A stretch of DNA of 64,000 nt. It comes from a virus. Taxonomy: Duplodnaviria; Caudoviricetes. The translations under genes were made by a program, and so were the position numbers. The stretch is taken from IMG/VR virus record IMGVR_UViG_3300007735_000777, positions 1,912 through 65,911 of that record; one strand, written 5' to 3'. Positions 31,448 to 46,014 of this stretch are shown piece after piece (the first letter of the stretch is position 1; each line of letters opens with the position of its first letter). Under the pieces are notes generated by a model. The model made no database searches, was not told the DNA's origin, and saw nothing but the letters and a program-made list of their open reading frames with translations.

Positions 31448-31467
31448 AGGACTTACCCTAACAAATG

Positions 31468-31947
31468 TTAGAGTTGGGTGATTTCACGTTGGATGTACCA
31501 GACCGCTTTCTCCAAGTCTTGTTTCTTGTTGCCTTTGTGGTCGGCTCGGCTGATGTACTTCACGGCGTTACCCATGTTGTAGTTCAGCTTTTTGGCTTCA
31601 ATGAAGTCGATGGTCTCGATTCCACCTACTTTGTAATGGTAGGGGTGATTCACTGGGTCAGGTTGCGGTTCAATCATTGTGATGGCTTCTGGTACAGGTA
31701 CAGGTACAGGTACAGGTAACAACTCGGGAGGTTGCCACAGGGTGGGTTTGCGCTTGCGCCCCTTGGTCAACTTGTATATCTGTTGAGCGTCTTTTAAACG
31801 CTTATCCATCGTTTTCCTACACATGTACGCGATCTGGTACGTGGTGTTGAACTTCTTGGCTACTTCACTAGCCGTAGCTGTTGGGTTTGCGGTGAAGTAC
31901 TCACGCATCTTTGCGGCGCGGCTTGCGGTTGCTTTCTTAGTTGCCAT
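31468..31947 (-). CDS. HTH plus DUF3310 (T7 gp1.7-like nucleotide kinase domain) protein
   Basis: ASEVAKKFNTTYQIAY HTH; DPVNHP.HY..GGIETID...GNAVKY..R...K....DLEKA.WY. Confidence 0.8.
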   Translation of the reverse strand: MATKKATASRAAKMREYFTANPTATASEVAKKFNTTYQIAYMCRKTMDKRLKDAQQIYKLTKGRKRKPTLWQPPELLPVPVPVPVPEAITMIEPQPDPVNHPYHYKVGGIETIDFIEAKKLNYNMGNAVKYISRADHKGNKKQDLEKAVWYIQREITQL

Positions 31948-32134
31948 TGTTAGCTCCTTGCTGTTGGCTGTTTACATACTCGGTAAGAATTTCACGAATC
32001 TTGGCTTGCTTTGAATACGGATGGTGGGTGTTGAAATAGTCCATCACCTCCCTCGATAGTCGCAAGCTCGTATTGAAAAGGGTTGGCTTCTTACTTGGGC
32101 CTCGTCCTTTTCGTTTTTTAATTTCTTCCATCAT
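31937..32134 (-). CDS. Ribbon-helix-helix DNA-binding protein (BrnA/CopG-like)
   Basis: GRGP..KP....TSLRLSREVMDYF......QAKIREIL. Confidence 0.7.
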   Translation of the reverse strand: MMEEIKKRKGRGPSKKPTLFNTSLRLSREVMDYFNTHHPYSKQAKIREILTEYVNSQQQGANNGN

Positions 32135-32553
32135 TTCTTTGTCCCTTTATATTTACCCGTCCATTTATACGAACCACGGGTTTCTTTTGCGCCCATCTTC
32201 TTGAAGAACGTCAGCATTGATCTGTACGGTACGCCGAACTGCTCGGCAATCTGCTTCTTGGTCATACCATCCCCCAAAAGTTTCAACGCCCTACGCTCGT
32301 CAATCTTGGGTAGCTTTCTGCCCGAACCTACTCTCGCCCCGCCCATCATGGACGGCGGTGTTGTGCTTATGTTCTTATTTGTTATCCCAAAAACTGTTCC
32401 GTGGCTTGGCTTTGTTTTGCGTAGCTTATGGATGCCCTCGGTTACGCTTGCGCTGATAACTGCATTACGTTTAATGTCGGCAAATGGGTCGCCCCTCTTG
32501 GCGTGTTCCTCGTCTGTGTATGCCTTCCAATTAAATGCGTTCACTGCACTCAT
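32131..32553 (-). CDS. C-terminal HTH protein
   Basis: GGARVGSGRK; GMTKKQIAEQFGVPYRSM. Confidence 0.7.
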   Translation of the reverse strand: MSAVNAFNWKAYTDEEHAKRGDPFADIKRNAVISASVTEGIHKLRKTKPSHGTVFGITNKNISTTPPSMMGGARVGSGRKLPKIDERRALKLLGDGMTKKQIAEQFGVPYRSMLTFFKKMGAKETRGSYKWTGKYKGTKK

Positions 32554-32692
32554 GGTGTTCTCCTGCTATTTTGGTTACAAATATTGTGTTGCACTTGGTG
32601 CAACGCCACAATGTGCCTTGTTCGACAACCGTCCTGCGCTCACCACGTAGGCCGCGCACTTTACCCCAAAATGTTCTGATTGCTTCAAGCAC
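32531..32692 (-). CDS. Small Zn-finger protein
   Basis: GTG after AAGGAG; WRCTKC...HEC. Confidence 0.6.
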   Translation of the reverse strand: MLEAIRTFWGKVRGLRGERRTVVEQGTLWRCTKCNTIFVTKIAGEHHECSERI

Positions 32693-32915
32693 TATTCTTC
32701 TCCTTGAGTTTGGCTTCAACTGCACGGCAGGTTTTTTGGATGCTCATGCTTATACAGTCATTGATTTCTGCATCAGTTAAGTCAATCCATTCACGCCTGA
32801 CCAGACCCAATAAATACTCAATTGCTTGCGCGGCGTGTTCTGCCGTGTTTGCTCTTGTTTTATCCTTGAGTTGTTTGGCATAAGCCTCGCATTCTTCTAT
32901 GCTCCAAGGTTTCAT
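32685..32915 (-). CDS. Small early protein, W.xLT.E...EAKLKEKN family
   Basis: REWIDLTDAEI...VEAKLKEKNSA. Confidence 0.65.
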   Translation of the reverse strand: MKPWSIEECEAYAKQLKDKTRANTAEHAAQAIEYLLGLVRREWIDLTDAEINDCISMSIQKTCRAVEAKLKEKNSA

Positions 32916-33148
32916 GTGTTCTTCTCCTTGAGTTTGGCTTCAATAGCCTTAGAAAAATGCAACCAGCCCCATGTTTTTAAGAATCCATCTAGCATATTCG
33001 GCATAGATTCAAAAGCCGCTTGTCTATCCTCATCCGTCAGCCCTGCCCACTCACGCTCAGGCAATGGATGCCCTGCGTGTTTATACGCTTCCTCACGCCA
33101 ACGCTTTGCTCGGGCTTTGTGGTACTCACAGTTTGGGCAGTCTTTCAT
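32912..33148 (-). CDS. Small early protein, W.GLT.E...EAKLKEKN family
   Basis: CPNC; REWAGLTDED...IEAKLKEKNT. Confidence 0.7.
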   Translation of the reverse strand: MKDCPNCEYHKARAKRWREEAYKHAGHPLPEREWAGLTDEDRQAAFESMPNMLDGFLKTWGWLHFSKAIEAKLKEKNT

Positions 33149-33360
33149 GTGTTCTTCTCCTTGTATGCCATGTGTCTGTCGTACATTTCTAAAAGCGTTT
33201 CGCGGTCAATGTAGTAGTCACGCACCAACGCAAGTCGCATGATGTTGCCTATCAATGCCGCCATTGCACTCTTGTGGTGCTTGTCATCAATGTCGTAGTC
33301 TTCCACCAACTTGGCTCGCCATGCTGTCTCGTTTCCATGTACTCGTAGATGCCTAAGCAT
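33145..33360 (-). CDS. Small early protein (start 33360 or 33384)
   Basis: Coupled on both sides; ends KEKNT. Confidence 0.55.
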   Translation of the reverse strand: MLRHLRVHGNETAWRAKLVEDYDIDDKHHKSAMAALIGNIMRLALVRDYYIDRETLLEMYDRHMAYKEKNT

Positions 33361-33556
33361 TCTGTTGCTCCTTCCATCGTTCACACATCTGTTTCACCGT
33401 CTTGGTTTTCTTTTTCTTGTCGCACACTGCGCTCATGGATTTGTATACCGCCTTGGCGTGTAGTGTCGGCGGTGCTGGCGGCGCGGGAGGGTCAGGAAAC
33501 AATCCGTTCCAACCTACTGTACCTAGCACAGCACTGAGAACGAGTCGGTCAAGCAC
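33353..33556 (-). CDS. Small membrane or secreted early protein
   Basis: Hydrophobic N-terminus, Pro tract; GTG after AAGGAG. Confidence 0.6.
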   Translation of the reverse strand: MLDRLVLSAVLGTVGWNGLFPDPPAPPAPPTLHAKAVYKSMSAVCDKKKKTKTVKQMCERWKEQQNA

Positions 33557-33935
33557 AATTCTTCTCCTTCAACCTTGCTTCTAACTTCTCGGCAAAAGGC
33601 AGTACGCAGTCATGAAAGTCACCTGCTTCTACTTTTCGCCAAATCGTTTCAATCTCATCAACCGTCAGCCCTACCCATGTGCGCTGTGGTGAAGTGATGT
33701 AGAGAAGATTGCGTCCAACAGGCAGATCATGCCCCCAATCGTCAAACTCTCTCTCGCCAATTCCAGAGATAAAGATTGACGCTACAGGCTCCTGCTCTGG
33801 CTGTGCCAAGGCTTCTTTGCATTTGTCAATGACCGCTTCGTACATCAACAAATATTCACGGCGTTCGTTTTCAATAATATAGTGCTTGTTGTCTTCCAAA
33901 AACTCAAGTGCCAGCTTCAATGCTTCATCAGTCAT
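33549..33935 (-). CDS. Early protein, W.GLT.E family
   Basis: ALAQPEQEPVA..RTWVGLTVDEI..LEARLKEKNCA. Confidence 0.7.
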   Translation of the reverse strand: MTDEALKLALEFLEDNKHYIIENERREYLLMYEAVIDKCKEALAQPEQEPVASIFISGIGEREFDDWGHDLPVGRNLLYITSPQRTWVGLTVDEIETIWRKVEAGDFHDCVLPFAEKLEARLKEKNCA

Positions 33936-34147: not shown

Positions 34148-34362
34148 TCTGTACCTCCATACATACTCCACTCCTCTGCCTTCTTCGCCATGAACAAGCC
34201 TTCTGCTCTGGTCATCTTGGATGAGCGAATAAACAACTCCCCCTCAAAGTCGTACCCAATAACCATAACATCTGTTAGCTCCATTTGCAGTGCGGACTGC
34301 AACGCTTGTTCAGCCGTGTAGTTTTCGGATGCTGGCAAAGAGATTACGTTTTCGTTGTTCAT
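34144..34362 (-). CDS. Small early protein
   Basis: ATGA coupling at both ends. Confidence 0.65.
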   Translation of the reverse strand: MNNENVISLPASENYTAEQALQSALQMELTDVMVIGYDFEGELFIRSSKMTRAEGLFMAKKAEEWSMYGGTE

Positions 34363-34967: not shown

Positions 34968-35080
34968 TCTTCGCCTCCGTCTTGTATCCAAAAAATCGCC
35001 CATATAAAAATTGCCCCCGCAGCGATGCCTACGAAGCCGCCCAATGCAAGTACTGCAATCCAAGTAAGCGCATCTAACAT
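34964..35080 (-). CDS. 38-aa membrane peptide
   Basis: MLDALTWIAVLALGGFVGIAAGAIFIWAIFWIQDGGEE; ATG lies inside the 12-bp box. Confidence 0.6.
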   Translation of the reverse strand: MLDALTWIAVLALGGFVGIAAGAIFIWAIFWIQDGGEE

Positions 35081-35083
35081 TTG

Positions 35084-35638
35084 TTATCCCCTTTTCGTTT
35101 CTCTGCGTACATACCCACGCTTGGCAAGCTCCTCGGTTACGCTAGTACCACCACGCAGTGCGTTCTTAGCCGCCGCCATGACCTCATCATTGATTATGTT
35201 GTCGTGCGATAACATAAGTGTCTTAGCCAACTTAGCCGTTTCTTTCTTGACCCAGTCGAACGTGCGGTACACACCCTTAGTTAACCGCGCAATATCTGGC
35301 GGATACCCACTTGCAATCTGCCGTATGTATAGCATCGGAACCAAGTCGTCTGCATGAGCGCAGTCAAACCCAAACCATTTGCGCCCATCCATCTTGTCGC
35401 CAAAGGTCAGCCCACCGTGCGCGTACACACCAATTTCATCCGCATCTTGGTAGCTCATGCCATGTAGTTTGTGCCCTATGGGTACTGCAACATACCCACA
35501 CAGACTCAGCGTACTCATGTTGCGTTTGACACGGCAATGGTATCCCGTCTTTTTGTCTACCCACTCCTCAAAGTCAGGCTCGTTCTCCCACGGCCTGTGT
35601 TCTATGAGTAGCTTTGCTTTTTGCATGTCATCTAACAT
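35084..35638 (-). CDS. Conserved phage protein (CGYV..HGGLTF..GFDCAH)
   Basis: Recognisable motif family; start and stop both lie in 12-bp boxes. Confidence 0.8.
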   Translation of the reverse strand: MLDDMQKAKLLIEHRPWENEPDFEEWVDKKTGYHCRVKRNMSTLSLCGYVAVPIGHKLHGMSYQDADEIGVYAHGGLTFGDKMDGRKWFGFDCAHADDLVPMLYIRQIASGYPPDIARLTKGVYRTFDWVKKETAKLAKTLMLSHDNIINDEVMAAAKNALRGGTSVTEELAKRGYVRRETKRG

Positions 35639-35641
35639 TTG

Positions 35642-36511
35642 TTATTCCTCCTCTACCAACACGAACGTCTCATCATTCACCCTGCACCCTGTGCCTGATA
35701 CAAATTGCTCGGCTTGTACAAGTTTGAGCATACCTAGTTTGCCACGCATCCACTCGGGGAGCGTATTATCATCAAACAAGTCCACCTTGTCACCTATCTT
35801 GACTAGGTAACTACCCCCATCTTTGATAACCAGTGCGGTCTTACCCGCCTCGAACGCAGTCTTAGCTTTCTCAATGGTCATCATCTCATCGGTCAGGCGT
35901 TCCCTCTCCTGCATAGCGTTCTTAACTTTATTGCGCTCATTCTCTGCACATGTTTCAATATGCTCAAGGAACAAATGAAAGCCAGTTCCCATGATGAAAT
36001 CCTGCGCGGCAACTTTGACAGTGCTATCAACGGCGTAGTGATCGCGCTCCTTCAGCCGCTTCTGCTTGTTAATAACTGAACCCGCATTCTCAATAGCCTT
36101 CTCGATACGCTCGTTGGGCTTGAGTTTGAAGAACATCTTCTTCGCCATGAGCACGGCTTTGCTCGCATCTTCCGTGCGATACCCCCTTGCGCGTTCCCGC
36201 GTCTTGGCAATCCGAGCATTGGAAATACAGATTACTTCCCTGTTGCCCAGCCGTTCTTTGTCAATCGTGCCTATCTGTTCCCCATGCTCAAGTACGCTGA
36301 ATGATATAAGCGCTAGTCTGTCGCTACCACCCCACACCCATTCAGTGGCAACGAATCTCCACAGTGGGTTCAAAGTGGCCAGCCGTTGAATGACTGGGTC
36401 TAGTAGCCTATGTACATACGTACTGGAAATGTCGCCCGTGGATTTGCGCCGCTCCAACTCGGTTTGCAACTTCGCGCTGATCTCTACGTTGCTCAGTTCT
36501 AATGTGTTCAT
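35642..36511 (-). CDS. Hypothetical early protein
   Basis: 289-aa ORF with AGGAG SD. Confidence 0.8.
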   Translation of the reverse strand: MNTLELSNVEISAKLQTELERRKSTGDISSTYVHRLLDPVIQRLATLNPLWRFVATEWVWGGSDRLALISFSVLEHGEQIGTIDKERLGNREVICISNARIAKTRERARGYRTEDASKAVLMAKKMFFKLKPNERIEKAIENAGSVINKQKRLKERDHYAVDSTVKVAAQDFIMGTGFHLFLEHIETCAENERNKVKNAMQERERLTDEMMTIEKAKTAFEAGKTALVIKDGGSYLVKIGDKVDLFDDNTLPEWMRGKLGMLKLVQAEQFVSGTGCRVNDETFVLVEEE

Positions 36512-36533
36512 GTTCTTCTCCTAACAAATGTTA

Positions 36534-37385
36534 TTACCACTCGAAACGCTTGAGGATGTCGTCCACCTTGGACTTCAACTCGCTACGTGAATCTGCATGT
36601 TCCTTGATGTCCTCAATGTCAGCAGTCACCATCGCCAACTCCAACTGTCTACGTGCTTCTTCCAGCTTGGGGTCGTTGGTCACGTTCAGCTTGGTCAGCA
36701 AAGAACAAAGTTCGAGAGGATTGGATACCAACGTATCGTGGTAACGCTTCTTGCCGTCACCATCCTTGTCGGTCAGCTTCTCAGAGATACCAACCAACAT
36801 CTCGTGCAGTCTGTCCCACGGCTCACGCATGGCCTCGGCCAGCTTGCGATCTTGCTGTGCCATGAACTCGCTACGCATCTCCTCCAAGTCGTACGCAGGA
36901 ATGTCTAAGCGGAAGTCGCCCGCTTCGGGCACGGGCTTGACCGTGCGCTTGAACCCGAACTTCAACCTAACATCTGTTATGTCGGGGTAGTCCTCGGCCT
37001 TGTACATAGTGCCTAAGTTAATAGGTGCTTCTGCAACCAGACGCGGGTACTCGATGAAGAAGTTGTCGCACATCATGTTGAATGTCTGCTCAAACCCATT
37101 CATGGTCTGCTTGTAGTCCATGAACAACGCAGTCGGTAACATACGCTCGCCCTTGTCAGCCCACGGCAGTGTGTGCTTGTTGTGATACAGACGAACCCTT
37201 GCGGCGAAGTCTGATATGTCTTTGCGTAGCGAAGTACCTGCAAACAGATTCTTCTTGGTCTGACTCGCACCACGAACCGCAGACGCATCGCTGTTCACCT
37301 TGTCGGTGATCTCCCTGTCCAACTTGGACGCAGGCCATACGCTGATATTCAATTCCACTAACAATGCTGATGAACTAATACTCAT
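36534..37385 (-). CDS. DUF3150-like protein
   Basis: LLVELNISVW..KLD, TLPW...G.R.LP, LNVTNDPKL; adjacent to the AAA/VWA pair. Confidence 0.6.
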   Translation of the reverse strand: MSISSSALLVELNISVWPASKLDREITDKVNSDASAVRGASQTKKNLFAGTSLRKDISDFAARVRLYHNKHTLPWADKGERMLPTALFMDYKQTMNGFEQTFNMMCDNFFIEYPRLVAEAPINLGTMYKAEDYPDITDVRLKFGFKRTVKPVPEAGDFRLDIPAYDLEEMRSEFMAQQDRKLAEAMREPWDRLHEMLVGISEKLTDKDGDGKKRYHDTLVSNPLELCSLLTKLNVTNDPKLEEARRQLELAMVTADIEDIKEHADSRSELKSKVDDILKRFEW

Positions 37386-37556: not shown

Positions 37557-37708
37557 TGTCCTTCTCCCAAAAGTCTTAAATATGTTTCCGCTAACGCCTT
37601 GGTGTTGACCTTAATCAACACTGTGTTGGTATGGGTGTCGATTACTCTCCACTTACCATACCTCCACTTGATTTTGTACCGGTCTATGTACACCCACTGC
37701 CCTAACAT
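37553..37708 (-). CDS. Small early protein (MLGQW...)
   Basis: ATG inside the 12-bp box; ATGA coupling at its end. Confidence 0.5.
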   Translation of the reverse strand: MLGQWVYIDRYKIKWRYGKWRVIDTHTNTVLIKVNTKALAETYLRLLGEGQ

Positions 37709-37717
37709 TTGTTATGT

Positions 37718-38935
37718 TCAGTCTTTGATGTGGATGGTCTTGCCATTGCCAGCCTCACCATCGAAGTAGTCACCGACAATGCACCACAGCGTAGGTGCAG
37801 TCCATTCACTGCCCCAGTCATCGCCCACGCAACCATCGGTCAGGATGATGACGCACTCGGGCTTGATGTTCTTCTCCTTGAGATACTCTGATACACAGCT
37901 TGGGCTTGTGCCACCGCCACCCTTGGGGCGTGTTGAGTTGATGATGTTGGCGGCTTCACCGTCACCATAAGTCTCGTGCCCCACCACACTGCTACCCCAA
38001 TACAGCAAGTCCACACACGCAGGGTTTACTTCTTCTGCGATACCCTTAACCTCGGACAAGAACTCGGCAAGCTCGCCATCACCCACCGAACCCGATGTGT
38101 CCACCGCGATAACCAAGTGGCCTACCTTCTCACCAATCAGCGTCGGCATGTACATGCCTGTGGATAAGAACCTACGGTTAACCCTGCGCCATGACGATGC
38201 GTCCTTGGAATTGCAGATTGATTTGACAAAGTCACGCAGGACTTCGCGCCAGTTGACCTTCGGCTCCATCAGGTCGGCAAGCTCACGGTCTGACCCATCT
38301 GCTCCAGTACCAGCAAGTTTCTGTCGTGCCATCATGCCTTGGCGTATCGCTTGGTCGATCTCGCGCTCAAGCTCACGCTTCTCTTCCTCGGTCATGTTCT
38401 TGGCATCTTCCCAATCGTGGTCGTCAAAGTCACCATCGCCATCACCTTCGCCGTTGCCACCACCGCCATCCTTCTGCTCCTGCTTGAGAATGTCGAACAC
38501 TTGCTTGGTATTCAGGCCACGGAATCGCTCGTCAATGAAGCCCATCGCCTGACCTGCCATCTTGTGCCCCTTGGGGTAGCGCGGCATCGCAATGAACTTC
38601 TCATCGGGGTCGAGGTCTCTGAGCATCAGGTTAATAACGTAGTCACAAGCACGGTTAGCCAGCTTGTGGTTCTCGTCATGCAACTTCCTCCATGTGGTCA
38701 GGTGTCGGTACATCTTGTGCGATGCTTCGTGCGCAATCAAGAACCCAAGCTCTGGGTCACGCAAATCTGCTACGAACTTGCGCCCATACTTCTCGTCACG
38801 CCCATTGGTACTTGCGGTCGGGATGTTATCCACTACGCTCGTACGTCCAACCATCAACACGCCAGACAGCAATGCGAACTTGGGGTTACGCATCAACATG
38901 ATCTTGGCCTTCTGAACTTTTCTTTCTTCTAACAT
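37718..38935 (-). CDS. Metallopeptidase-like plus VWA domain protein (DUF2201-like)
   Basis: TASTNG, HEASH zincin motif, MIDAS DTSGS, GGGT, ILTDG. Confidence 0.9.
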   Translation of the reverse strand: MLEERKVQKAKIMLMRNPKFALLSGVLMVGRTSVVDNIPTASTNGRDEKYGRKFVADLRDPELGFLIAHEASHKMYRHLTTWRKLHDENHKLANRACDYVINLMLRDLDPDEKFIAMPRYPKGHKMAGQAMGFIDERFRGLNTKQVFDILKQEQKDGGGGNGEGDGDGDFDDHDWEDAKNMTEEEKRELEREIDQAIRQGMMARQKLAGTGADGSDRELADLMEPKVNWREVLRDFVKSICNSKDASSWRRVNRRFLSTGMYMPTLIGEKVGHLVIAVDTSGSVGDGELAEFLSEVKGIAEEVNPACVDLLYWGSSVVGHETYGDGEAANIINSTRPKGGGGTSPSCVSEYLKEKNIKPECVIILTDGCVGDDWGSEWTAPTLWCIVGDYFDGEAGNGKTIHIKD

Positions 38936-38938
38936 TTG

Positions 38939-39184
38939 TTAGCTCCCTTCGTTTAACATATCTGCAATCTTCTGACACACATTGTGTTCCTTGTGTTGGA
39001 ACACGGTCGGCCATCCACTGATGTCTCTGTCTCTCACACAGTGCCCCAATACATCAATGATGTGGTTGTTGGAATCAAACTTAGTTACCCACTGCACAAA
39101 GTACCGCGCTCTCAACTGCTCACGCAGTCTCTTGTTCGTGGGGTGGTCAACGCTTGTTGTGCTCACGCTGTGCCTCCTCCTCAA
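38939..39184 (-). CDS. Small early protein (start uncertain)
   Basis: Stop lies in a 12-bp box. Confidence 0.55.
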   Translation of the reverse strand: MRRRHSVSTTSVDHPTNKRLREQLRARYFVQWVTKFDSNNHIIDVLGHCVRDRDISGWPTVFQHKEHNVCQKIADMLNEGS

Positions 39185-39449
39185 TGTTTATCAGCATGAA
39201 CATCGCTGACTCCATCTGCTCCAAGTCCTTGGTCTCAAGGACTACGGTTTGTTTCTTCTCCCATGTGTTCGGGTCTTGCCGCCACTTCACTAGGGTGAAC
39301 TCAAACTCTGCCATGTACAGCAACTCAAACATGCGTTTCTTGATGAGAAGTTGGTAGGCAGAGTCGAGTCTTTTCAACTTCTTCCCCAACCATTCCAACT
39401 TCTCAAGCCTCAACGGCAGTTCGCGTTTGTTTTCAATGTGTACGTACAT
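39147..39449 (-). CDS. Small early protein (MYVHIE...)
   Basis: ATG at the edge of the 12-bp box. Confidence 0.6.
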   Translation of the reverse strand: MYVHIENKRELPLRLEKLEWLGKKLKRLDSAYQLLIKKRMFELLYMAEFEFTLVKWRQDPNTWEKKQTVVLETKDLEQMESAMFMLINIEEEAQREHNKR

Positions 39450-39457
39450 AACATTTG

Positions 39458-40546
39458 TTAGAGCAGGTCTTGGTTCTTGGCTACCCAATTACTGAACGCC
39501 TTGGAACTGAACGCAATCGCTTGCTTGTCCTTGGCCTTGGCGATGTTGATAGCGAACACGGCTTGCCACTCGGCATCGAATCGCTCAAGGTATTCCATGA
39601 ACGGTGTAATCGTGTCCTTGGTGATACGTGAGATAGCGCCAAACACCACAATCGCACACGCGCCCGGACTTGTCGGTATCTTCGTAGTCTTAGGATGCTC
39701 GATGGTTGACTCCCATGTCGGCAGTTGATCTGCAAACTCGATGTACGCCTGCATGTCCCGCGCACCTGATTCACCCAACGCACCAGCCAACGCCGCAATC
39801 ACCGCATCGGGGTCGTTCTCTCTACGTGTTCGGACAATGTTGCTTGCAGTTGCCAGAGAACGTGGAGATACGAACGCACGCTGTGGTTTCTTGGGGTTGA
39901 AGATGTACGGGTTGTCGCCATGCCCATCGGTGTAGCTCGCCAGTACGTGAGGGAATCGGCTCACCCATGCACAGACTTCAGGCTCAATACCGTTAGGGAT
40001 AGCCCATTCCAACCATTGTTCTGCGGTCGGCTTGGCAATGGTTATGGGTACTAAGCGATTGGCACTGTGTTGTTTCAGCGAGTCTCCGACACCGTCAGTG
40101 GTCAAGTTGCCAGTCAGGAACACAATGGTGTTCTTGTCCAGTGAAATGTCACCGAGTCGCGGGTTGGCCTTCTCGAACATGGGGTGAAGCATATTCTTCA
40201 CAGGGTCTGCGCCCTTGGTGTACTCGTCAAGCATGATGACCACGGGCTTGTGCTCATGCACCTTGAACCGAGCGTTGGGGTAGTAGCGTGTGGTCTTGGT
40301 CTCGTGGTCGATCACAGGCATTGCAATGTCGCCCAAATCCATATTGGGTACGTCAATATACGCATGGTCGTAGCCCAGACCACCTGCCACCTGCTCAAGT
40401 AGGGAGGACTTGCCGATGCCCGGCTCGCCTTGCAACAAGAAGATGGTCTCGGGGTTGGTACGGATAAGCGTTGCCGCTTGCTTCAAAGTCACTGACTTAC
40501 CAAATTTAACTTCTGACATTTCTGATACTCCTGATGTGCCTAACAT
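39458..40546 (-). CDS. MoxR-like AAA+ ATPase (start 40546 or 40519)
   Basis: GEPGIGKS, MLDE, LTGN, NRL, SPRS. Confidence 0.9.
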   Translation of the reverse strand: MLGTSGVSEMSEVKFGKSVTLKQAATLIRTNPETIFLLQGEPGIGKSSLLEQVAGGLGYDHAYIDVPNMDLGDIAMPVIDHETKTTRYYPNARFKVHEHKPVVIMLDEYTKGADPVKNMLHPMFEKANPRLGDISLDKNTIVFLTGNLTTDGVGDSLKQHSANRLVPITIAKPTAEQWLEWAIPNGIEPEVCAWVSRFPHVLASYTDGHGDNPYIFNPKKPQRAFVSPRSLATASNIVRTRRENDPDAVIAALAGALGESGARDMQAYIEFADQLPTWESTIEHPKTTKIPTSPGACAIVVFGAISRITKDTITPFMEYLERFDAEWQAVFAINIAKAKDKQAIAFSSKAFSNWVAKNQDLL

Positions 40547-40592
40547 TTGTTATGTTTCGGCGGTTGAAAAAACTTTCCCACTCGCAACCTAT

Positions 40593-40621
40593 ATTATAAC
40601 ACAAAGTTACATATAAGTCAA
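40593..40621 (-). promoter_or_regulatory. Strong sigma70 early promoter
   Basis: TTGACT-17 nt-TATAAT. Confidence 0.85.
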
Positions 40622-40812: not shown

Positions 40813-40837
40813 TTCTTTCTCCTTTGTATAACATTTG

Positions 40838-41809
40838 TTATTCCCAACTCTGCATCCAGTGCTCATAGATGCCGCTCGACACCTTGCCCATCGGCAACTC
40901 GTAGCGCACCAGCACCTGATCTGCGTACAGCATAAACAATACATCATCAAGCAGTGGCACGATATGCTTGGACTGCGCATAGACCTGATCGGTGCGAATG
41001 TCCATCTCATCGGTCTCCAACTTGGCGATCAACACCAACGCCGCCTTGTAGAAGTTCGTATGCTTGTCCTCCTCGGGTTGGTCGGGGCGAATCAAATACT
41101 CGAACGCCTTGACTGATGCCTCGTACTGGTCAGGTCTGACTGCGCTGTAATTCATGCTCTGTTTGCCGCGCTTGTCCATGTACTTGTACTCACGTATGGA
41201 TGCTAGACTACCTTGTCCGAACGCTGACTTCAATTCCTCTCTCGGTATGACAACGTAGTTCTTCTCAGGTTGCCAACGATTTGGTTTTGCCGCTTCGGTG
41301 CGTAGGTTCACGAACCCTTTCAAGTACTTGTAGAACTCACCGTACCTAGACCTAACATTTGTTATTTCTTTGCGGTTGAGCTTCCATCCCCATTGCGTCT
41401 TGGCATTCAGGACATGCCAGTTCCCCTCCTCCATACGCAGACGCAACTTGTCCTTGTCGGCAAGCGTGTACTTGCCGCCGCCGATTGTCAGCACAGTCGT
41501 GCGCCGTGCACCGTGCGCACTGATACCCAACACTTGCCCGATGAACTGATGCGTGGATACGGAGTTGTACCCATCAATGAATACCACCACGTCCCCATCT
41601 GGCTCGAACGTAACGACCGGAGTCTTATATAACACCAACTCAATCGCATCCCCATTCTTGCGTATGTGGTACGTGTCTGCATCCCGTCGGTCACCCAACG
41701 GCCTGACTTCAGGCACACGCCCACGTATGGGCTTGCTGTTGTTGAATATGCTCAGTGCCTCTTGGTAGTACAGCACTCGCGGTACTCGTCTAACTGTTGC
41801 ATGTCCCAT
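40838..41809 (-). CDS. Hypothetical early protein
   Basis: 323-aa ORF (KPIRG...RPLG.RR..LYKTPVV); contains an internal 12-bp box. Confidence 0.8.
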   Translation of the reverse strand: MGHATVRRVPRVLYYQEALSIFNNSKPIRGRVPEVRPLGDRRDADTYHIRKNGDAIELVLYKTPVVTFEPDGDVVVFIDGYNSVSTHQFIGQVLGISAHGARRTTVLTIGGGKYTLADKDKLRLRMEEGNWHVLNAKTQWGWKLNRKEITNVRSRYGEFYKYLKGFVNLRTEAAKPNRWQPEKNYVVIPREELKSAFGQGSLASIREYKYMDKRGKQSMNYSAVRPDQYEASVKAFEYLIRPDQPEEDKHTNFYKAALVLIAKLETDEMDIRTDQVYAQSKHIVPLLDDVLFMLYADQVLVRYELPMGKVSSGIYEHWMQSWE

Positions 41810-41810
41810 C

Positions 41811-42041: not shown

Positions 42042-42199
42042 ACACCTCCAATCGTTTTGTATGCCTTGATCTTTTTCAGCGATGGATGGGAAGTCTTGAA
42101 CCTCTCCTTCGCCAGCTTCATGTTCTTGGCTACGATACTCTCGGCAACCCAGTTGCTGAATCTATCGCACCATCCTGTTACGTAGTATCTACCTAACAT
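42038..42199 (-). CDS. Small basic protein (MLGRYY...)
   Basis: 53 aa; ATG inside the 12-bp box. Confidence 0.55.
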   Translation of the reverse strand: MLGRYYVTGWCDRFSNWVAESIVAKNMKLAKERFKTSHPSLKKIKAYKTIGGV

Positions 42200-42312
42200 T
42201 TGTTAGCCCCCCTTTGCTTGAGAATCCGCATCCAATCAATGCGGGACAAAAACCATCTGAACAATGGTGTCGAACAGTCTTGGCAGAGCACCCGCAAGTT
42301 GTCCCCGTTCAT
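42193..42312 (-). CDS. 39-aa protein (MNGDNLRVLCQDC...)
   Basis: ATGA-coupled; TAG stop in the right arm of the box. Confidence 0.45.
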   Translation of the reverse strand: MNGDNLRVLCQDCSTPLFRWFLSRIDWMRILKQRGANKC

Positions 42313-42497
42313 AACCTCACCTCTCTTTGTTTCACCTTCACCTCATACCCAAGCATCTGTATGCGCTTGATGTCTGGTGGTAGCAGTGTCTTAGTACCTG
42401 CAATGTCTGCGAATATCTGTGCCTTGTCACACACTGGATACACCTTGGGCTGTCCGTACACGTCTTTGATTTCAATGGTTATTGTTTGCTCTAACAT
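42309..42497 (-). CDS. Small conserved phage protein (DVYG..KVYPVC..A..FA.IAGTKTL)
   Basis: ATG inside the 12-bp box. Confidence 0.7.
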   Translation of the reverse strand: MLEQTITIEIKDVYGQPKVYPVCDKAQIFADIAGTKTLLPPDIKRIQMLGYEVKVKQREVRL

Positions 42498-42500
42498 TTG

Positions 42501-42698
42501 TTATTCCTTTACTTCAATGTCTTTGTTTACTAACTTCTGAAACCTTTCGAGAACCTCTCGGTCGTCATGGTCGAGCACGAACTCAAGCACGAACCCATGC
42601 CCAAGGTTGTCGTTAGCCTCCATGAATGAGTATGTGTCGCGGTCGTACAGATACAGCGAACCCGAATCTATACCCCGCAACAATACGAACTTCTTCAT
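42501..42698 (-). CDS. Small early protein
   Basis: GGAGG SD; stop in box. Confidence 0.6.
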   Translation of the reverse strand: MKKFVLLRGIDSGSLYLYDRDTYSFMEANDNLGHGFVLEFVLDHDDREVLERFQKLVNKDIEVKE

Positions 42699-43384: not shown

Positions 43385-43611
43385 GTTCTCAACTCCTTTT
43401 GGTTAGTTTGCTTCAAGGTTGTGGGTGCTTGAGTAGGTGTTACCAACTGATACGGCCCTTTGCCGTACTCTTGCACGATGCACCAGCTTGATCGGGCTTC
43501 GGATGCGGCGTGTTCACGGTCACGCTCGCAGAACAAACAGAATGCTTGGTATCTTGAAGCGGGTACATCGTCACCGCAGTCAACGCATATCTTCCAGTCA
43601 AAATCTAACAT
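43381..43611 (-). CDS. Small C4 zinc-finger protein (TraR/DksA-finger-like)
   Basis: CVDCGDDVPASR...CLFC; ATG in box. Confidence 0.65.
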   Translation of the reverse strand: MLDFDWKICVDCGDDVPASRYQAFCLFCERDREHAASEARSSWCIVQEYGKGPYQLVTPTQAPTTLKQTNQKELRT

Positions 43612-43614
43612 TTG

Positions 43615-43845
43615 TTACCCCTCCCGTGATTCTTGGTTGTGGTTAGCATAGTATTGGGTTATCTTGCTCAGTTCTTGAGCAAGCGTGTTGAGCACCACAT
43701 GAAGCGCAGTGGTGACAGCCGCAGGGTTGTTGCTACCCTTGGCGATGTCGTAGGCGTAGGAGATGGACTCCCTGATGGAGTCCTTGGTTGCAAACAGTGG
43801 GTTGTACAAACCCGATGCAAGTTGGGCGATTTCTTTATCTAACAT
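43615..43845 (-). CDS. Small early protein
   Basis: Start and stop both in 12-bp boxes. Confidence 0.7.
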   Translation of the reverse strand: MLDKEIAQLASGLYNPLFATKDSIRESISYAYDIAKGSNNPAAVTTALHVVLNTLAQELSKITQYYANHNQESREG

Positions 43846-43910
43846 TTGTTACCTCTGACCTTTCTGATTTTGGGTTTGGCTGAGAGACGGTTTTCTCCCA
43901 ACCAGCTTAT

Positions 43911-43939
43911 ATTATACCACAAAGTTATGATATAGTCAA
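43911..43939 (-). promoter_or_regulatory. Strong sigma70 early promoter
   Basis: TTGACT-17 nt-TATAAT with TGn. Confidence 0.85.
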
Positions 43940-43967
43940 GTTTATTGACGTGGTGTTGGCGCAGTGT

Positions 43968-44171: not shown

Positions 44172-44256
44172 GGTGTACCTTTCTGATTGAACCTAACATT
44201 TGTTATGTTTTCGGGGTTTTGGCAGGGCTGTTTTTGTTTTTTCCCAACCAGCTTAT

Positions 44257-44472: not shown

Positions 44473-44631
44473 TGGGTATGTGTGATGTTATGCACTTGCT
44501 GTGTTGCGCATTTTGGCGGGTTCTCACTATACCCGTGTAACATTGTAACATATAACAATGCTTTAAAATCAACAACTTGCGTGTGATACGATATAACATT
44601 ACCCTTCAAAACATAACATTTGTTAGGTTCG

Positions 44632-44758: not shown

Positions 44759-44782
44759 CATTCGGGAAAAGTCGGGCGAAAC

Positions 44783-44845
44783 AAAAACCCGTCATAACAA
44801 AAGTTATGACGGGCAGACGCAAAAAAGCCCGCATGAAGCGGGCTT
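44783..44845 (-). terminator. Two tandem intrinsic terminators
   Basis: GCCCGC-N5-GCGGGC + T6, then CCCGTCATAAC-N4-GTTATGACGGG + T5 on the - strand. Confidence 0.75.
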
Positions 44846-44864
44846 AGTGTTAAGAGGGTAAGGG

Positions 44865-45062
44865 TTAGTCTGTTAGTAGGGCAGTATGCACAACCCCGCG
44901 ACCACGCGCCAAAATCATTTCTTGAATGATGGCTTCGCGCAATTCATTGATTAAGCGGTGTGCATCAAACTTTGGGCTTTCCTTGAAATCAAACCCGTTC
45001 AAGTAAGCGCATTCGACCATGAGTTGCAGTTGTTGCAGTTTTTTCTCTGTGCTGTGCATCAT
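44865..45062 (-). CDS. Small early protein
   Basis: GGAG SD before MMHSTE; followed by terminators. Confidence 0.55.
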   Translation of the reverse strand: MMHSTEKKLQQLQLMVECAYLNGFDFKESPKFDAHRLINELREAIIQEMILARGRGVVHTALLTD

Positions 45063-45124
45063 TTTGAATTCTCCGAACATAACAAATGTTATAAATAGGG
45101 CAGGGTAAACCCTGCCCTGCCCGA

Positions 45125-45646
45125 TTAACCTAATTCATCGATGTTGCCACCGAGAATCGCGTAAGCAGTCATAAGCTCGCCCTTGACCTCAGACGCCTTG
45201 CACTCAGTGCCCGCTTCCTCAGCCTTGAATATCCGATTGATAAGGGTTTTCAATTCGGCAAGGGTTTTCGCGTCAACATCCTGCGAACCACCGGATACCT
45301 TGTTACCCGCTGTCACGTACCCGCTCGCTTCCTTGACACGTTGCCAGTAGACGTTGATTGTGGCTTCACCGAAACCCTCATCCTTGAATGCTTGGACGAA
45401 CAGCTTGCGCTCATCATTCACACCGGCTTTGAGCTTACCCTTAAGCTCGTACCACTTGCTCGTTACGTTGCCCTCATTGTCAACAAGGTCAAAGGCTGAG
45501 CAAAGGCCGTTAGCATAAGCGCTGAGCACTTGGCCGGTTTTCTTGGCCGACTTGACTAGATCGGTGCGAAGCTCGAACAAGGGGACAACCGGAGTGACGC
45601 CGACTTGTGTGACAACCGCGCCTGCTACCTGAGTGAGTGTATTCAT
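45125..45646 (-). CDS. First gene of the leftward early block, hypothetical
   Basis: 173-aa ORF with GAAAGG SD, upstream promoter and downstream hairpin GGGCAGGG-TAAA-CCCTGCCC. Confidence 0.75.
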   Translation of the reverse strand: MNTLTQVAGAVVTQVGVTPVVPLFELRTDLVKSAKKTGQVLSAYANGLCSAFDLVDNEGNVTSKWYELKGKLKAGVNDERKLFVQAFKDEGFGEATINVYWQRVKEASGYVTAGNKVSGGSQDVDAKTLAELKTLINRIFKAEEAGTECKASEVKGELMTAYAILGGNIDELG

Positions 45647-45725
45647 TTTCTAACCTTTCAAAAACATCTAACATGAAACATAACATCTGTTATGTATGCA
45701 ACCGATTATCCGTTTGCATGGGTAT

Positions 45726-45754
45726 ATTATACCACAAAATAATAGACAATGCAA
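45726..45754 (-). promoter_or_regulatory. Sigma70 early promoter
   Basis: TTGCAT-17 nt-TATAAT; shares TTTGTGGTATAATATA with the 43911 and 44257 promoters. Confidence 0.75.
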
Positions 45755-46014
45755 ATACAGCGTAAACAATAAATAAAAGAATATTCTAGTATGGGGACGG
45801 GCCTAACAATAGTTAGATTATCAAATTGATAAACCCCACCACCCCAAAAAATAGGAAAAGGGAGGTGCCGCACTTACACTGTGCGGAACACACCCGGTAC
45901 CAACATCCATACTTTTTATAACAATACCCCCCTCCCCCCTTTAAGTTTCCAGTCGGCCCTAATAAGTATCCATCCACAGAAACACCCCCCGTCACTTTTT
46001 ATTTTGGGTTCCCG

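What the first reader, a model, noticed from the sequence alone, without database searches (positions are those of the whole stretch)
31459..45815. A 12-bp quasi-palindrome (TAACA-AA-TGTTA) saturates the early region only: candidate undescribed system
Seen: 17 exact copies (31459, 35075, 35633, 36522, 37703, 38930, 39449, 40541, 40829, 41353, 42194, 42492, 43606, 43840, 44194, 44614, 45080) and 5 variants (34266, 36968, 44795, 45681, 45804) within 14.4 kb. I noticed none in the other ~50 kb. Uniform-base expectation for one 12-mer on both strands of 64 kb is about 0.008. Copies sit downstream of all four early promoters, at gene junctions, beside the final terminator and inside genes. Inference: a dimeric protein coats the whole early block, for global silencing, protection of first-entering DNA or staged entry, rather than acting at a few operators.
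Basis: partly seen in the sequence, partly recalled or inferred. Interest (0 to 1): 0.88.

Follow-up and report, generated by a model that had tools for sequence, protein, structure and literature searches.

The report
Phage early-gene palindrome array with partner protein
An uncultured freshwater phage repeats one 12-letter mirror-symmetric DNA word 22 times through its early genes, often using it as the stop and start signal between genes, and the word most likely serves as docking sites for the phage's own first early protein, a protein of no known family.

Summary
TAACAAATGTTA occurs 17 times (0.01 expected), and there are 5 near-copies. All lie in window 31459-45815; the rest of the 65.9-kb virus record has none.

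The word marks gene junctions. Its TAA is the upstream gene's stop in 8 sites. Its ATG is the downstream start in 8. Six more sit in leaders or short gaps 10-35 nt upstream of a start, four of them downstream of the four strong sigma70-type promoters. Only 3 of 22 lie deep inside genes.

Of 58 related viral loci, 51 carry the same array: arms TAAC/GTTA with a genome-specific centre of 2, 3, 4 or 5 letters. Two phages about 93% identical differ by one centre letter at 6 of 8 alignable orthologous sites. That implies a phage-encoded factor that reads the spacing.

One gene family tracks the array: g1 (45125-45646, 173 aa, the first early gene). It is present in 11 of 11 array-bearing genomes and 0 of 3 array-less ones. 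Its clades match the spacing classes, and it is predicted to form a symmetric homodimer. It has no Pfam, PHROG or fold match.

Best reading (about 0.5): g1 dimers bind these sites on DNA and shut off the early operons, in the manner of stoperators. Binding itself is untested. This scan has noted the same array in other genomes of the lineage.

The parts
45125..45646 (-). g1: first early gene, 173 aa, candidate binder of the palindrome
   Evidence: The only ORF family present in 11 of 11 array-bearing and 0 of 3 array-less non-redundant loci. Its clades match the spacing classes. Predicted homodimer: ipSAE 0.71 against best control 0.02. No Pfam, PHROG, PDB or BFVD match.
45804..45815 (.). Site 1 (variant; reads TAACTATTGTTA on the - strand), about 50 nt upstream of the -35 of P1, outside the early transcript
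   Evidence: A class-matched copy at this position occurs in 11 of 13 genomes examined.
45726..45755 (-). Promoter-like P1 (TTTGCA-18-TATAAT with TG), which drives g1
45681..45692 (.). Site 2 (variant TAACAGATGTTA) in the g1 leader, 35 nt upstream of the g1 ATG
45080..45091 (.). Site 3 (exact, T-rich centre on the coding strand), between the g1 stop and the start of the next small gene at 45062
44787..44814 (-). Terminator-like hairpin whose apex is site 4 (variant TAACTTTTGTTA, 44795-44806). It is the second of three tandem terminators after the g1 operon (44845-44825, 44814-44787, 44726-44697).
44614..44625 (.). Site 5 (exact), in the non-coding stretch between the terminators and P2
44257..44285 (-). 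Promoter-like P2 (TTGACA-17-TATAAT with TG; 12 of 12)
44194..44205 (.). Site 6 (exact), in the P2 leader, 22 nt upstream of the ATG at 44171
43911..43939 (-). Promoter-like P3 (TTGACT-17-TATAAT with TG)
43840..43851 (.). Site 7 (exact), in the P3 leader. Its ATG starts gene 43615-43845, with the SD GAGGT 5 nt upstream.
43606..43617 (.). Site 8 (exact). Its TAA is the stop of 43615-43845 and its ATG is the start of 43381-43611.
42492..42503 (.). Site 9 (exact). Its TAA is the stop of 42501-42698 and its ATG is the start of 42309-42497.
42194..42205 (.). Site 10 (exact). Its ATG is the start of 42038-42199.
41353..41364 (.). Site 11 (exact), inside gene 40838-41809
40829..40840 (.). Site 12 (exact). 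Its TAA is the stop of 40838-41809; the site lies 16 nt upstream of the ATG at 40812.
40593..40621 (-). Promoter-like P4 (TTGACT-17-TATAAT with TG)
40541..40552 (.). Site 13 (exact), in the P4 leader, 22 nt upstream of the SD-preceded ATG at 40519 of the AAA ATPase gene
39449..39460 (.). Site 14 (exact). Its TAA is the stop of the AAA ATPase gene.
38930..38941 (.). Site 15 (exact). Its TAA is the stop of 38939-39166 and its ATG is the start of the DUF2201 gene (37718-38935). The orthologous junction carries the genome's own spacing in L026 and L015, and no palindrome in the array-less L031 and L033.
37703..37714 (.). Site 16 (exact), 3 nt after the DUF2201 stop. Its ATG starts 37553-37708.
36968..36979 (.). 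Site 17 (variant TAACAGATGTTA), inside gene 36534-37385
36522..36533 (.). Site 18 (exact, T-rich centre), directly after the stop of 36534-37385 and 10 nt upstream of the ATG at 36511
35633..35644 (.). Site 19 (exact). Its TAA is the stop of 35642-36511 and its ATG is the start of 35084-35638 (SD AGGAGG 8 nt upstream).
35075..35086 (.). Site 20 (exact). Its TAA is the stop of 35084-35638 and its ATG is the start of a 38-codon ORF, 34964-35080.
34266..34277 (.). Site 21 (variant TAACAGATGTTA), inside gene 34144-34362
31459..31470 (.). Site 22 (exact, T-rich centre). Its TAA is the stop of the last early gene (31468-31947, DUF3310). It is followed by the terminator at 31447-31430.
31387..31414 (-). 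Promoter-like P5 (TTGACA-16-TATTAT with TG), heading the replication operon. No copy of the word lies downstream of it, so it marks the array's boundary.

Best explanation
The 12-bp word is the operator of a phage-encoded regulator, and g1, the first early gene, is that regulator.

Proposed sequence of events:
1. Host sigma70 RNA polymerase fires the consensus promoters P1-P4 on entry (inferred from sequence).
2. P1 drives a short operon beginning with g1, which is closed off by three terminators.
3. g1 forms a symmetric homodimer (predicted). Each subunit reads one TAAC(A) arm on double-stranded DNA. The dimer geometry fixes the permitted centre length, which is 2 bp between TAACA and TGTTA in this phage (inferred).
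4. As g1 accumulates it occupies about 22 sites: one upstream and one downstream of its own promoter, one in each leader of P2-P4 (+27 to +64), and one at most gene junctions down to the final terminator.
5. Bound dimers act as roadblocks, and possibly form loops. They shut off the small host-takeover genes, while the replication operon (P5) and the late genes, which lack the word, carry on (inferred).

The phage genome has almost no intergenic space. The word has therefore been written into the one place where it costs little: the stop-CAA-start junction (TAA-CAA-ATG-TTA). As a result many early proteins begin Met-Leu.
For: Array and placement:
- 17 exact and 5 near copies, all in 31459-45815.
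- 3 of 22 lie deep inside genes against 17.9 expected under random placement. 14 of 22 lie within 40 nt of a start against 4.9 expected; 0 of 10,000 randomisations reach either value.

Selection acts on the DNA word, not the peptide:
- The orthologous DUF2201 junction reads TAACAAATGTTA here, TAACAATGTTA in L026 and TAACAAAATGTTA in L015. In the array-less L031 and L033 there is no palindrome and the protein begins MN instead of ML.

A phage-encoded factor that reads spacing:
- 51 of 58 related loci carry the array. The dominant centre length differs by genome: 26 loci with 3, 18 with 4, 6 with 5 and 1 with 2.
- L017 and L084 (the same phage as L020) are about 93% identical overall. Of 13 L017 sites, 8 lie in aligned segments; 6 of those 8 differ by one extra centre letter and 2 are not palindromes in the partner.

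g1 is the partner:
- It is the only ORF family of the +/-10 kb neighbourhoods found in 11 of 11 array-bearing and 0 of 3 array-less non-redundant loci.
- On the g1 tree the centre-4 genomes form one clade (7 of 7, support 99) and the centre-5 genomes another (2 of 2, support 100). On the backbone tree the centre-5 genomes sit inside the centre-4 clade.
- My prediction that the centre-5 phage L020 carries an L015-type g1 was then met in L084.

Dimer:
- ipSAE 0.71, best of 3 controls 0.02. The runs share at least 82% of contacts and partner pLDDT is at least 78. This mark was reached by 20 of 30 proteins solved as pairs and 1 of 23 solved as single chains.
- The nearly invariant R27, Y44 and E79 are among the lowest-error contacts across the interface.

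DNA rather than RNA:
- A class-matched copy lies upstream of the P1 -35, outside the early transcript, in 11 of 13 genomes.
- Once sites that supply a start codon are removed, the two orientations are equally common: 115 against 97, p = 0.24.
- The arms are read base by base: 342 exact sites against 52 with one mismatch, and only 1 mismatch of the kind that would keep a G-U pair in the sense RNA.
- The RNA hairpins are weak, with four-pair apical stems at -0.6 to -3.7 kcal/mol.
Against: - No binding has been measured, and no tool here can model protein with DNA.
- g1 has no recognisable DNA-binding fold: 0 Pfam families, 0 PHROGs, no PDB or BFVD match with E below 0.2. The only hits are sub-threshold: Phage_int_SAM_4 in 4 of 31 members (best E 0.048) and MogR (E 0.58). 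By my own count of residues in the sequence it is slightly acidic (about 20 K+R against 22 D+E).
- Only three independent lineages lack both the array and g1, so the co-occurrence rests on few events.
- In L017 the g1 ORF is only the C-terminal 94 residues, and in L024 it is split into two ORFs, yet both keep the array.
- Some genomes mix centre lengths (L009 17 and 5; L012 6 and 6). That is awkward for a rigid dimer.
- About two thirds of sites touch or lie near translation-initiation regions, which an RNA-level repressor would also explain.
- Every symmetric change in arms or flanks fits an RNA stem as well as a DNA dyad.
- The direction of the effect (repression rather than activation or protection) is pure inference.
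Confidence: 0.5

Rival explanations
1. The word acts in the mRNA as an operator. It folds into a small hairpin (UAAC stem, A/U loop) at or just upstream of the start codon. A phage protein, g1 or another, binds it to repress translation or to direct processing of many early messages at once, as T4 RegA or the MS2 coat protein do at their operators.
For: In 8 of 22 sites the ATG is the start codon, usually with an SD 5-8 nt upstream. 14 of 22 site centres lie within 40 nt of a start. Across relatives, 121 of 377 sites with an A/T-only centre supply an ATG start. One copy forms the apex of a longer terminator-like hairpin. Flank changes between genomes (C..G, G..C, A..T) keep pairing. Mixed loop lengths within one genome are easy for a hairpin.
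Against: A class-matched copy sits upstream of the P1 promoter in 11 of 13 genomes. Other copies have no start codon nearby: before the final terminator, in a non-coding gap, and inside genes. Orientation is unbiased among sites that do not supply a start (115 against 97), so the loop sequence would have to be irrelevant. Only 1 G-U-compatible variant was found against 342 exact sites. Predicted stems are marginal. No Rfam family matches the word; the only hit in 30000-47000 is a sub-threshold Trp_leader at 44819-44910. Pfam scans of about 40 early proteins found no RegA-like or other RNA-binding family.
Confidence: 0.2
2. The word is chiefly a recombination signpost. Short identical junction sequences let related phages swap early-gene cassettes, as proposed for the promoter/stem-loop cassettes of T4-type phages or, with a recombinase, for integron attC sites.
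For: Many homology blocks between the window and its relatives end within 0-6 nt of a copy. Examples are at 45079, 44193, 37701, 35633, 35087 and 31471 against L009 and others. The genes between copies vary between genomes. In many relatives the arms read CTAAC...GTTAG, which resembles the integron core sites as I recall them.
Against: Homology blocks end just as often at junctions that have no copy, for example 37385, 41820, 42901 and 43381. The copy-free stretch 31.5-34.2 kb is equally mosaic. The record has no tyrosine recombinase. Recombination does not explain concerted one-letter spacing changes between near-identical genomes, nor the sites flanking P1. Any exchange at the word may be a by-product.
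Confidence: 0.07
3. The sites are bound on DNA, but either not by g1 or not for shut-off. A host factor or another phage protein might use them to protect the early DNA, to pace its entry, to anti-terminate or to organise it.
For: The array spans exactly one block, from upstream of P1 to the final terminator. g1 has no known DNA-binding fold. TGTTA/TAACA half-sites cluster in a conserved non-coding region even in L031, which lacks both g1 and the array, so something else in these phages or their hosts reads that pentamer.
Against: A host factor cannot explain different spacing classes in phages about 93% identical. No other ORF family has the right distribution. The physical genome ends are unknown, so nothing places this block first at entry.
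Confidence: 0.13

Closest known systems
Operators and stoperators of Cluster A mycobacteriophages (L5 gp71-type immunity repressor). I read passages of PMC9283540.
   Same: One phage protein with more than 20 short sites, lying both near promoters and in short intergenic gaps along operons. The sites are proposed to block initiation and elongation. Protein and sites diversify together between related phages.
   Different: L5 sites are 13-bp asymmetric, bound by a monomer with an HTH plus a stoperator domain. They work in one orientation only, lie throughout the genome and serve lysogenic immunity. Here the site is a palindrome and orientation-free, and it is confined to the early block. The candidate protein is a predicted homodimer with no HTH match. 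No integrase is present.
Start-associated sequences (SAS) and extended SAS of Cluster K mycobacteriophages. I read passages of PMC3203893.
   Same: A short repeat, 11-19 copies per genome, restricted to the non-structural half. It lies within a few nt of start codons and sometimes contains the upstream stop codon. Its function is unproven. The ESAS inverted repeats differ in consensus between subclusters and were judged more likely to be DNA-binding sites than RNA hairpins.
   Different: The SAS is asymmetric, contains the Shine-Dalgarno core and occurs in one orientation. Here the word is a dyad that contains the start codon itself, not the SD. A partner gene can also be named.
Cro-type early regulators of lambdoid phages (recalled; no call)
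   Same: A small dimer made from an early promoter. It binds palindromic sites and turns early transcription down.
   Different: Cro is an HTH protein with a few operators that overlap promoters. Here about 22 sites lie at roughly -80 to -90 and +27 to +64 of promoters and at gene junctions, and no HTH is detected.
T4 RegA translational repressor and RegB endoribonuclease (recalled; no call)
   Same: Global post-transcriptional shut-off of many early genes through short sequences at their ribosome-binding regions.
   Different: Those sites are unstructured and strand-specific RNA. Here the word is a dyad, orientation-free, and also present outside the transcript.
Planktothrix phage Pag-Yong1 (GenBank OL906435.1); Synechococcus phage MinM2 and Planktothrix phage Pra-JY27 gave an identical protein hit (65,014-bp records, not fetched)
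   Same: A distant cultured relative with the same ATPase, DUF3150-like and VWA gene set. It carries 19 copies of a different palindrome, GTTCAG-S-CTGAAC, mostly in the gaps before early genes.
   Different: The word is different and G+C-rich, and would fold far more stably as RNA. It sits between the stop and the SD rather than on the start codon. The first early protein is not detectably related to g1 (hhalign probability 0.11). I found no paper on it in the library.

Membership tests
L5-type operator/stoperator system | More than 20 copies of one short site, in promoter regions and in short intergenic gaps | tested here: met
   22 sites. 19 of 22 are not deep inside genes. Copies lie near all four early promoters.
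L5-type operator/stoperator system | 13-bp asymmetric site whose orientation follows transcription | tested here: not met
   The site is a 12-bp dyad. Among sites that do not supply a start codon, the orientations are 115 against 97, p = 0.24.
L5-type operator/stoperator system | Monomeric repressor with an N-terminal HTH and a stoperator domain | tested here: not met
   g1 has no Pfam or PDB match, and the PDB library used runs to April 2026. It is predicted to be a homodimer.
L5-type operator/stoperator system | Serves lysogenic immunity in a temperate phage | tested here: not met
   No tyrosine integrase in the complete record. Serine integrases were not searched separately.
L5-type operator/stoperator system | The bound protein stops elongating RNA polymerase | not testable with these tools
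   Needs reporter or in vitro transcription assays.
Cluster K SAS/ESAS | The repeat lies within a few nt of start codons of non-structural genes | tested here: met
   14 of 22 site centres lie within 40 nt of a called start, and 8 supply the ATG.
Cluster K SAS/ESAS | Asymmetric 13-mer containing the SD core, in one orientation | tested here: not met
   The word is a dyad without an SD; the SD lies upstream of it. Both orientations occur.
Dimeric HTH repressor with palindromic operators (Cro/CI type) | Palindromic site with two equal half-sites | tested here: met
   TAACA/TGTTA arms: 342 exact sites against 52 with one mismatch across relatives.
Dimeric HTH repressor with palindromic operators (Cro/CI type) | Homodimeric protein | tested here: inconclusive
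   Prediction only: ipSAE 0.71 against best control 0.02. The mark was reached by 20 of 30 proteins solved as pairs and 1 of 23 solved as single chains.
Dimeric HTH repressor with palindromic operators (Cro/CI type) | Helix-turn-helix DNA-binding domain | tested here: not met
   0 Pfam families for g1. 0 fold matches with E at or below 0.001 in PDB or BFVD.
Dimeric HTH repressor with palindromic operators (Cro/CI type) | Operators overlap the promoter hexamers | tested here: not met
   Copies lie about 50 nt upstream of the P1 -35 and at +27 to +64 of P1-P4.
RegA-type translational operator | Sites only in the sense mRNA at ribosome-binding regions | tested here: not met
   A conserved copy lies upstream of P1 in 11 of 13 genomes. 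Other copies lie before the terminator, in a non-coding gap and inside genes.
Integron attC / gene cassette array | IntI-type tyrosine recombinase | tested here: not met
   PF00589: 0 matches in the record, while the control rang in 14 of 14 known genomes.
Integron attC / gene cassette array | Imperfect palindrome of about 57-141 bp with R and L boxes (definition recalled) | tested here: not met
   The element is 12-14 bp.

The most novel reading that the evidence does not exclude
g1 is a new DNA-binding fold, and its dimer reads half-site spacing. g1 types and about 20 operators per genome switch together between centre lengths of 2, 3, 4 and 5 letters. This would form a specificity code that works like immunity groups, but among apparently virulent freshwater phages. 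A co-infecting relative of the same class would have its host-takeover genes silenced, and a change of class would escape that. The operators are also written into stop-start junctions, so regulation would dictate the N-termini of early proteins.
Probability: 0.25. Interest if true: 0.8.

Novelty: new variant of a known kind. Interest (0 to 1): 0.6.

Why it matters
This lineage is abundant. The g1 family alone has 505 hits in the 90%-identity protein collection and 297 clusters at 50% identity. All are unnamed, and none occurs in 50,697 GenBank phage records.

If g1 binds the word, three things follow:
- A large orphan protein family gains a function and perhaps a new DNA-reading fold.
- We get a clean natural experiment in how a regulator and about 20 sites change specificity in step, one base pair of spacing at a time.
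- We see how regulatory words can be embedded in stop-start junctions of compact genomes and so fix protein N-termini.

The pairs of g1 type and spacing class could also serve as orthogonal repressor-operator parts. If the RNA reading is right instead, this would be a structured, genome-wide translational operator in a phage.

Tried and rejected
1. Megablast of the early block against GenBank phages found no match.
2. Literature search for the word itself: the exact 12-mer is the core of the Streptococcus Aca11 inverted repeat (passages of PMC12658196) and fits the Listeria PrfA box (search listing only). Both are unrelated organisms with longer sites, so I treated them as coincidence.
3. Integron-like reading: no tyrosine recombinase.
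4. N4-like hairpin promoters for a virion RNA polymerase: the 2887-aa virion protein shows only weak LPD39 and GHKL matches and no polymerase. The word often contains the start codon with an SD upstream, so transcripts cannot begin downstream of it. Rejected.
5. The HTH-like protein at 32131-32553 as binder (HTH_7, E 6.4e-05, just below the cut-off): found in only 10 of the related loci and absent from array-bearing L009 and L010. Rejected.
6. Fold searches of the g1 model (pLDDT 80) against PDB and BFVD gave nothing with E below 0.2. The Atlas's nearest named cluster was DUF3102 at 0.84, a lead only. Ten distant g1 relatives scanned in Pfam gave one sub-threshold Sigma70_r4 hit (E 0.0012) and one DUF2061 hit.
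7. Isolated half-sites as support for g1 binding: the TGTTA/TAACA cluster at 44.3-44.6 kb also exists in L031, which lacks g1. It is a separate element.
8. Breakpoint analysis did not separate junctions with the word from junctions without it.
9. Expression: no RNA holder is listed for this stretch. The four runs guessed to be RNA were contigs, probably DNA of relatives, and showed no ends. This is no evidence either way.
10. DSL-LC04 and HTVC027P, relatives by terminase only, have no such array.
11. Rfam: no family at the word.
12. Supplementary files of papers were not opened. The tables of SAS and stoperator sites there could refine the comparisons.
The long contigs that hold further g1 types could therefore not be fetched that way.

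Full report
**Observation**

In 100 dinucleotide-preserving shuffles the mean was 0.01 and the largest count 1. Allowing any two centre letters adds 34266, 36968 and 45681. Allowing one mismatch adds 44795 and 45804, plus one copy outside the block at 26442: 23 matches against 0.43 expected. The window is positions 1912-65911 of a 65,911-bp IMG/VR virus record with direct terminal repeats. The whole record holds the same 17 exact copies.

**Setting**

- Genes between 21 and 45.9 kb lie on the - strand; the structural and packaging genes lie on the + strand.
- Four strong sigma70-type promoters with extended -10 elements face leftwards: 45755-45726, 44285-44257, 43939-43911 and 40621-40593.
- A terminator at 31447-31430 closes the block.
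- A fifth promoter of the same kind (31414-31387) heads the replication operon, which includes DNA polymerase A, SNF2 helicase, a PD-(D/E)XK nuclease and a DUF927 primase-helicase.
- The word occurs only in the first block. None follows the fifth promoter.
- 'Early' is my inference from these promoters and from the small unnamed genes. Of about 40 proteins scanned, only an AAA ATPase, a DUF2201 metallopeptidase/VWA protein and a DUF3310 protein reached Pfam's cut-offs.

**Anatomy**

Read on the coding strand, most copies are TAA-CAA-ATG-TTA.
- The TAA is the stop codon of the upstream gene at 8 sites.
- The ATG is the start of the downstream gene at 8 sites, mostly with a Shine-Dalgarno sequence 5-8 nt upstream.
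- Six copies lie 10-35 nt upstream of a start. Four of these are in the leaders of the four promoters, at about +27 to +64.
- One copy is the apex of a terminator-like hairpin.
- One lies in a non-coding gap, one lies upstream of the first promoter, and three lie inside genes.

Against random placement in the same 14.4 kb, which is 91% coding by my gene calls:
- 3 of 22 sites are deep inside genes, where 17.9 are expected.
- 14 of 22 lie within 40 nt of a start, where 4.9 are expected.
- Neither value was reached in 10,000 trials.

The word is therefore a junction element. The coding sequences have adapted to it, which is why many early proteins begin Met-Leu.

**Relatives**

I used the DUF2201 protein as a handle and fetched 58 IMG/VR loci at 37-94% identity.
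- 51 carry an array with the same arms, TAAC...GTTA.
- The dominant inner segment has 3 letters in 26 loci (TAACA-A/T-TGTTA), 4 in 18, 5 in 6 and 2 in one (CCTAACGCGTTAGG).
- Seven loci have no array.
- Flanks also differ by genome and change symmetrically: C..G, G..C or A..T.
- The arms are very sharply kept: 342 exact sites against 52 with one mismatch.

At the orthologous junction before the DUF2201 gene:
- The window has TAACAAATGTTA, L026 has TAACAATGTTA and L015 has TAACAAAATGTTA, all encoding M-L-E-E-R.
- The array-less L031 and L033 have no palindrome there and encode M-N-E-E-R.

Selection therefore acts on the DNA word.

**A factor that reads spacing**

On a backbone tree (DUF2201 protein plus the neighbouring 283-aa protein) the class changes at least 11 times. 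The sharpest case is L017 (inner 4) against L020 (inner 5).
- Their homologous segments are 83-98% identical (most 92-98%).
- L084 is the same phage as L020: 99.98% identical over 9.5 kb.
- L084 and L017 are about 93% identical over 8.3 kb.
- Of 13 L017 sites, 8 lie in aligned segments. Six of these differ by exactly one added centre letter, 2 are not palindromes in the partner, and 5 fall outside aligned segments.

A host factor cannot explain this pattern. A phage-encoded reader of the spacing can.

**The partner**

I clustered all ORFs of 38 aa or more in 14 non-redundant loci that have about 10 kb on both sides. Exactly one family is present in all 11 array-bearing loci and in none of the 3 array-less ones (L031, L046, L061). 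That family is g1, 45125-45646, the first gene after the first promoter.
- L031 has an unrelated protein in that position (hhalign probability 0.15).
- On the g1 tree the inner-4 genomes form one clade (7 of 7, support 99).
- The inner-5 genomes form another (L015 and L084, support 100), nested among inner-3 types. On the backbone tree these inner-5 phages sit inside the inner-4 clade.
- From this I predicted that L020 carries an L015-type g1. The metagenome contig L084, which is that phage, does: 87% identity to L015's g1.

What is known about g1 itself:
- It has 505 relatives in the 90%-identity collection and 297 clusters at 50% identity. All are unnamed and 97-252 aa long among those listed.
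- None occurs in 50,697 GenBank phage records.
- It has no Pfam or PHROG family.
- The AlphaFold model is all-helical (pLDDT 80) and matches nothing in PDB or BFVD with E below 0.2.
- Sub-threshold hints are Phage_int_SAM_4 in 4 of 31 members (best E 0.048) and MogR (E 0.58).

Two copies of g1 are predicted to pair:
- ipSAE is 0.71, and the best of 3 controls is 0.02.
- The three runs share at least 82% of contacts, and partner pLDDT is at least 78.
- The mark was reached by 20 of 30 proteins solved as pairs and 1 of 23 solved as single chains. These counts hold only roughly, because my own alignment was used.
- The model supports pairing; it does not show it.
- R27, Y44 and E79, three of the eight nearly invariant columns, are among the lowest-error contacts across the interface.
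- The conserved W101-x-R103-V104 helix is mostly outside the interface. I take it as the candidate reading head. This is inference.

**DNA or RNA?**

For DNA:
- A copy with the genome's own spacing lies 105-169 nt upstream of the g1 ATG in 11 of 13 genomes. In the window and most relatives that is upstream of the -35 and outside the early transcript.
- The 2:1 excess of the A-rich orientation (236 against 118) disappears once sites that supply a start codon are set aside: 115 against 97, p = 0.24.
- Only 1 G-U-compatible sense variant occurs, against 8 of the mirror kind.
- The RNA hairpins are marginal, with four-pair apical stems at -0.6 to -3.7 kcal/mol.
- Some copies have no start codon nearby.

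For RNA:
- About two thirds of sites touch or lie near ribosome-binding regions.
- One copy caps a terminator stem.
- Symmetric flank changes also keep pairing.
- Some genomes mix inner lengths (L009 17 and 5; L012 6 and 6).

I put the DNA reading with g1 at about 0.5 and the RNA reading at about 0.2.

**Mechanism proposed**

1. Host polymerase fires P1-P4.
2. g1 accumulates from its own short, terminator-insulated operon.
3. g1 dimers occupy the site pair flanking P1, which would give autoregulation.
4. They also occupy the leaders of P2-P4 and the junction sites.
5. Transcription of the small host-takeover genes is blocked, while the replication and late operons, which lack the word, continue.

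Shown here: the array, its placement, its conservation, the concerted change of spacing, and the co-distribution and co-phylogeny of g1. Predicted: the dimer. Inferred: binding, DNA as the target, and the direction of the effect.

**Weak points**

- No binding has been measured.
- g1 has no known fold and is slightly acidic by my count of residues in the sequence.
- Only three lineages lack both g1 and the array.
- g1 is truncated in L017 (a 94-aa ORF) and split in L024, yet both keep the array.

**Comparison with what is known**

- Closest in layout are the operators and stoperators of L5-type mycobacteriophages (passages of PMC9283540). Four defining features fail there: an asymmetric site, dependence on orientation, a monomeric HTH-stoperator protein, and lysogenic immunity. 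The window's system works like that one but is not a member.
- Cluster K SAS/ESAS (passages of PMC3203893) share the start-codon association and the restriction to non-structural genes. They are asymmetric and contain the SD.
- Cro, RegA/RegB, phiC31 conserved inverted repeats, P1 C1 operators, KorB sites, PeSL cassettes and attC sites are comparisons from memory only.
- I found no paper that describes this word or these phages' repeats. The papers on HTVC027P and DSL-LC04 were seen only as search listings.

**Earlier notes of this scan**

- First readers noted the same array in at least seven other genomes of the lineage.
- One follow-up (e1-6235702) reached the same 'first early protein, stoperator-like' reading. 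That is not independent evidence.
- I reached g1 through the tests, before I read that note.

**Verdict**

The feature is real. It is not chance, and it is not ordinary ribosome-site conservation. It is a new variant of a known kind of system, with an orphan partner protein and unusually clear evidence that the sites and their reader change together.

Noticed in passing
window 44286-44700: A non-coding stretch of about 400 nt lies between the three terminators and P2. It is packed with isolated half-sites: on the - strand several TGTTA, including a triplet at 7-8 nt spacing, followed by several TAACA. The 44-46 kb bin holds 15 half-sites, against 0-4 in any other 2-kb bin. The cluster, triplet included, is conserved in relatives and even in L031, which has neither the array nor g1. 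It could be an origin or a separate control region.
   Followed up: partly
window 40593-40621, 43911-43939, 44257-44285: Promoters P2-P4 share a conserved spacer, (A)TGTAACTTTGTG(G/T)TATAAT. It contains a TAAC half-site, and in P4 a 13-letter near-palindrome TAACTTTGTGTTA. The same spacer occurs in relatives, including the array-less L031.
   Followed up: partly
window 31401-31415 and about 44435-44462: A second palindrome type is built on the -35 hexamer: CTTGACAAAGTCAAG over P5 and CTTGACAATGTCAAG in the non-coding region. An earlier first-reader note (e1-6216834) also lists these.
   Followed up: no
L087 (Planktothrix phage Pag-Yong1, OL906435.1) 5977-18108: A distant cultured relative has an analogous array of a different palindrome, GGTTCAG-S-CTGAACC. 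There are 19 copies in 30.8 kb, mostly between the stop codon and the Shine-Dalgarno sequence of early genes. This makes it a possible laboratory model.
   Followed up: partly
L047 1969-2580 and 3266-3796: One relative carries two g1 paralogues in tandem. Its 25 sites have mixed flanks (C..G, A..G, C..T, A..T).
   Followed up: partly
L017 909-1193; L024 3132-3654: g1 is a 94-aa C-terminal ORF in L017 and is split into two ORFs in L024, yet both contigs keep full arrays. These may be assembly errors or natural variants.
   Followed up: partly
window 44697-44845: Three terminator-like hairpins in tandem close the two-gene g1 operon. A weak, sub-threshold Trp_leader match (E 0.04) overlaps the first.
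   Followed up: no
window 12145-20808: A 2887-aa virion-module protein shows weak GHKL ATPase and LPD39 matches, all below the Pfam cut-offs.
   Followed up: no
window 26442-26453: The only near-copy of the word outside the early block (TAACTTTTGTTA) lies inside the SNF2 helicase gene.
   Followed up: no
window 31937-32134: A 65-aa protein just before the last early gene is the most conserved small protein of the block: 86-98% identity in close relatives, including the array-less L031 and L032. It has a faint PHROG antitoxin match (E 0.00096).
   Followed up: no
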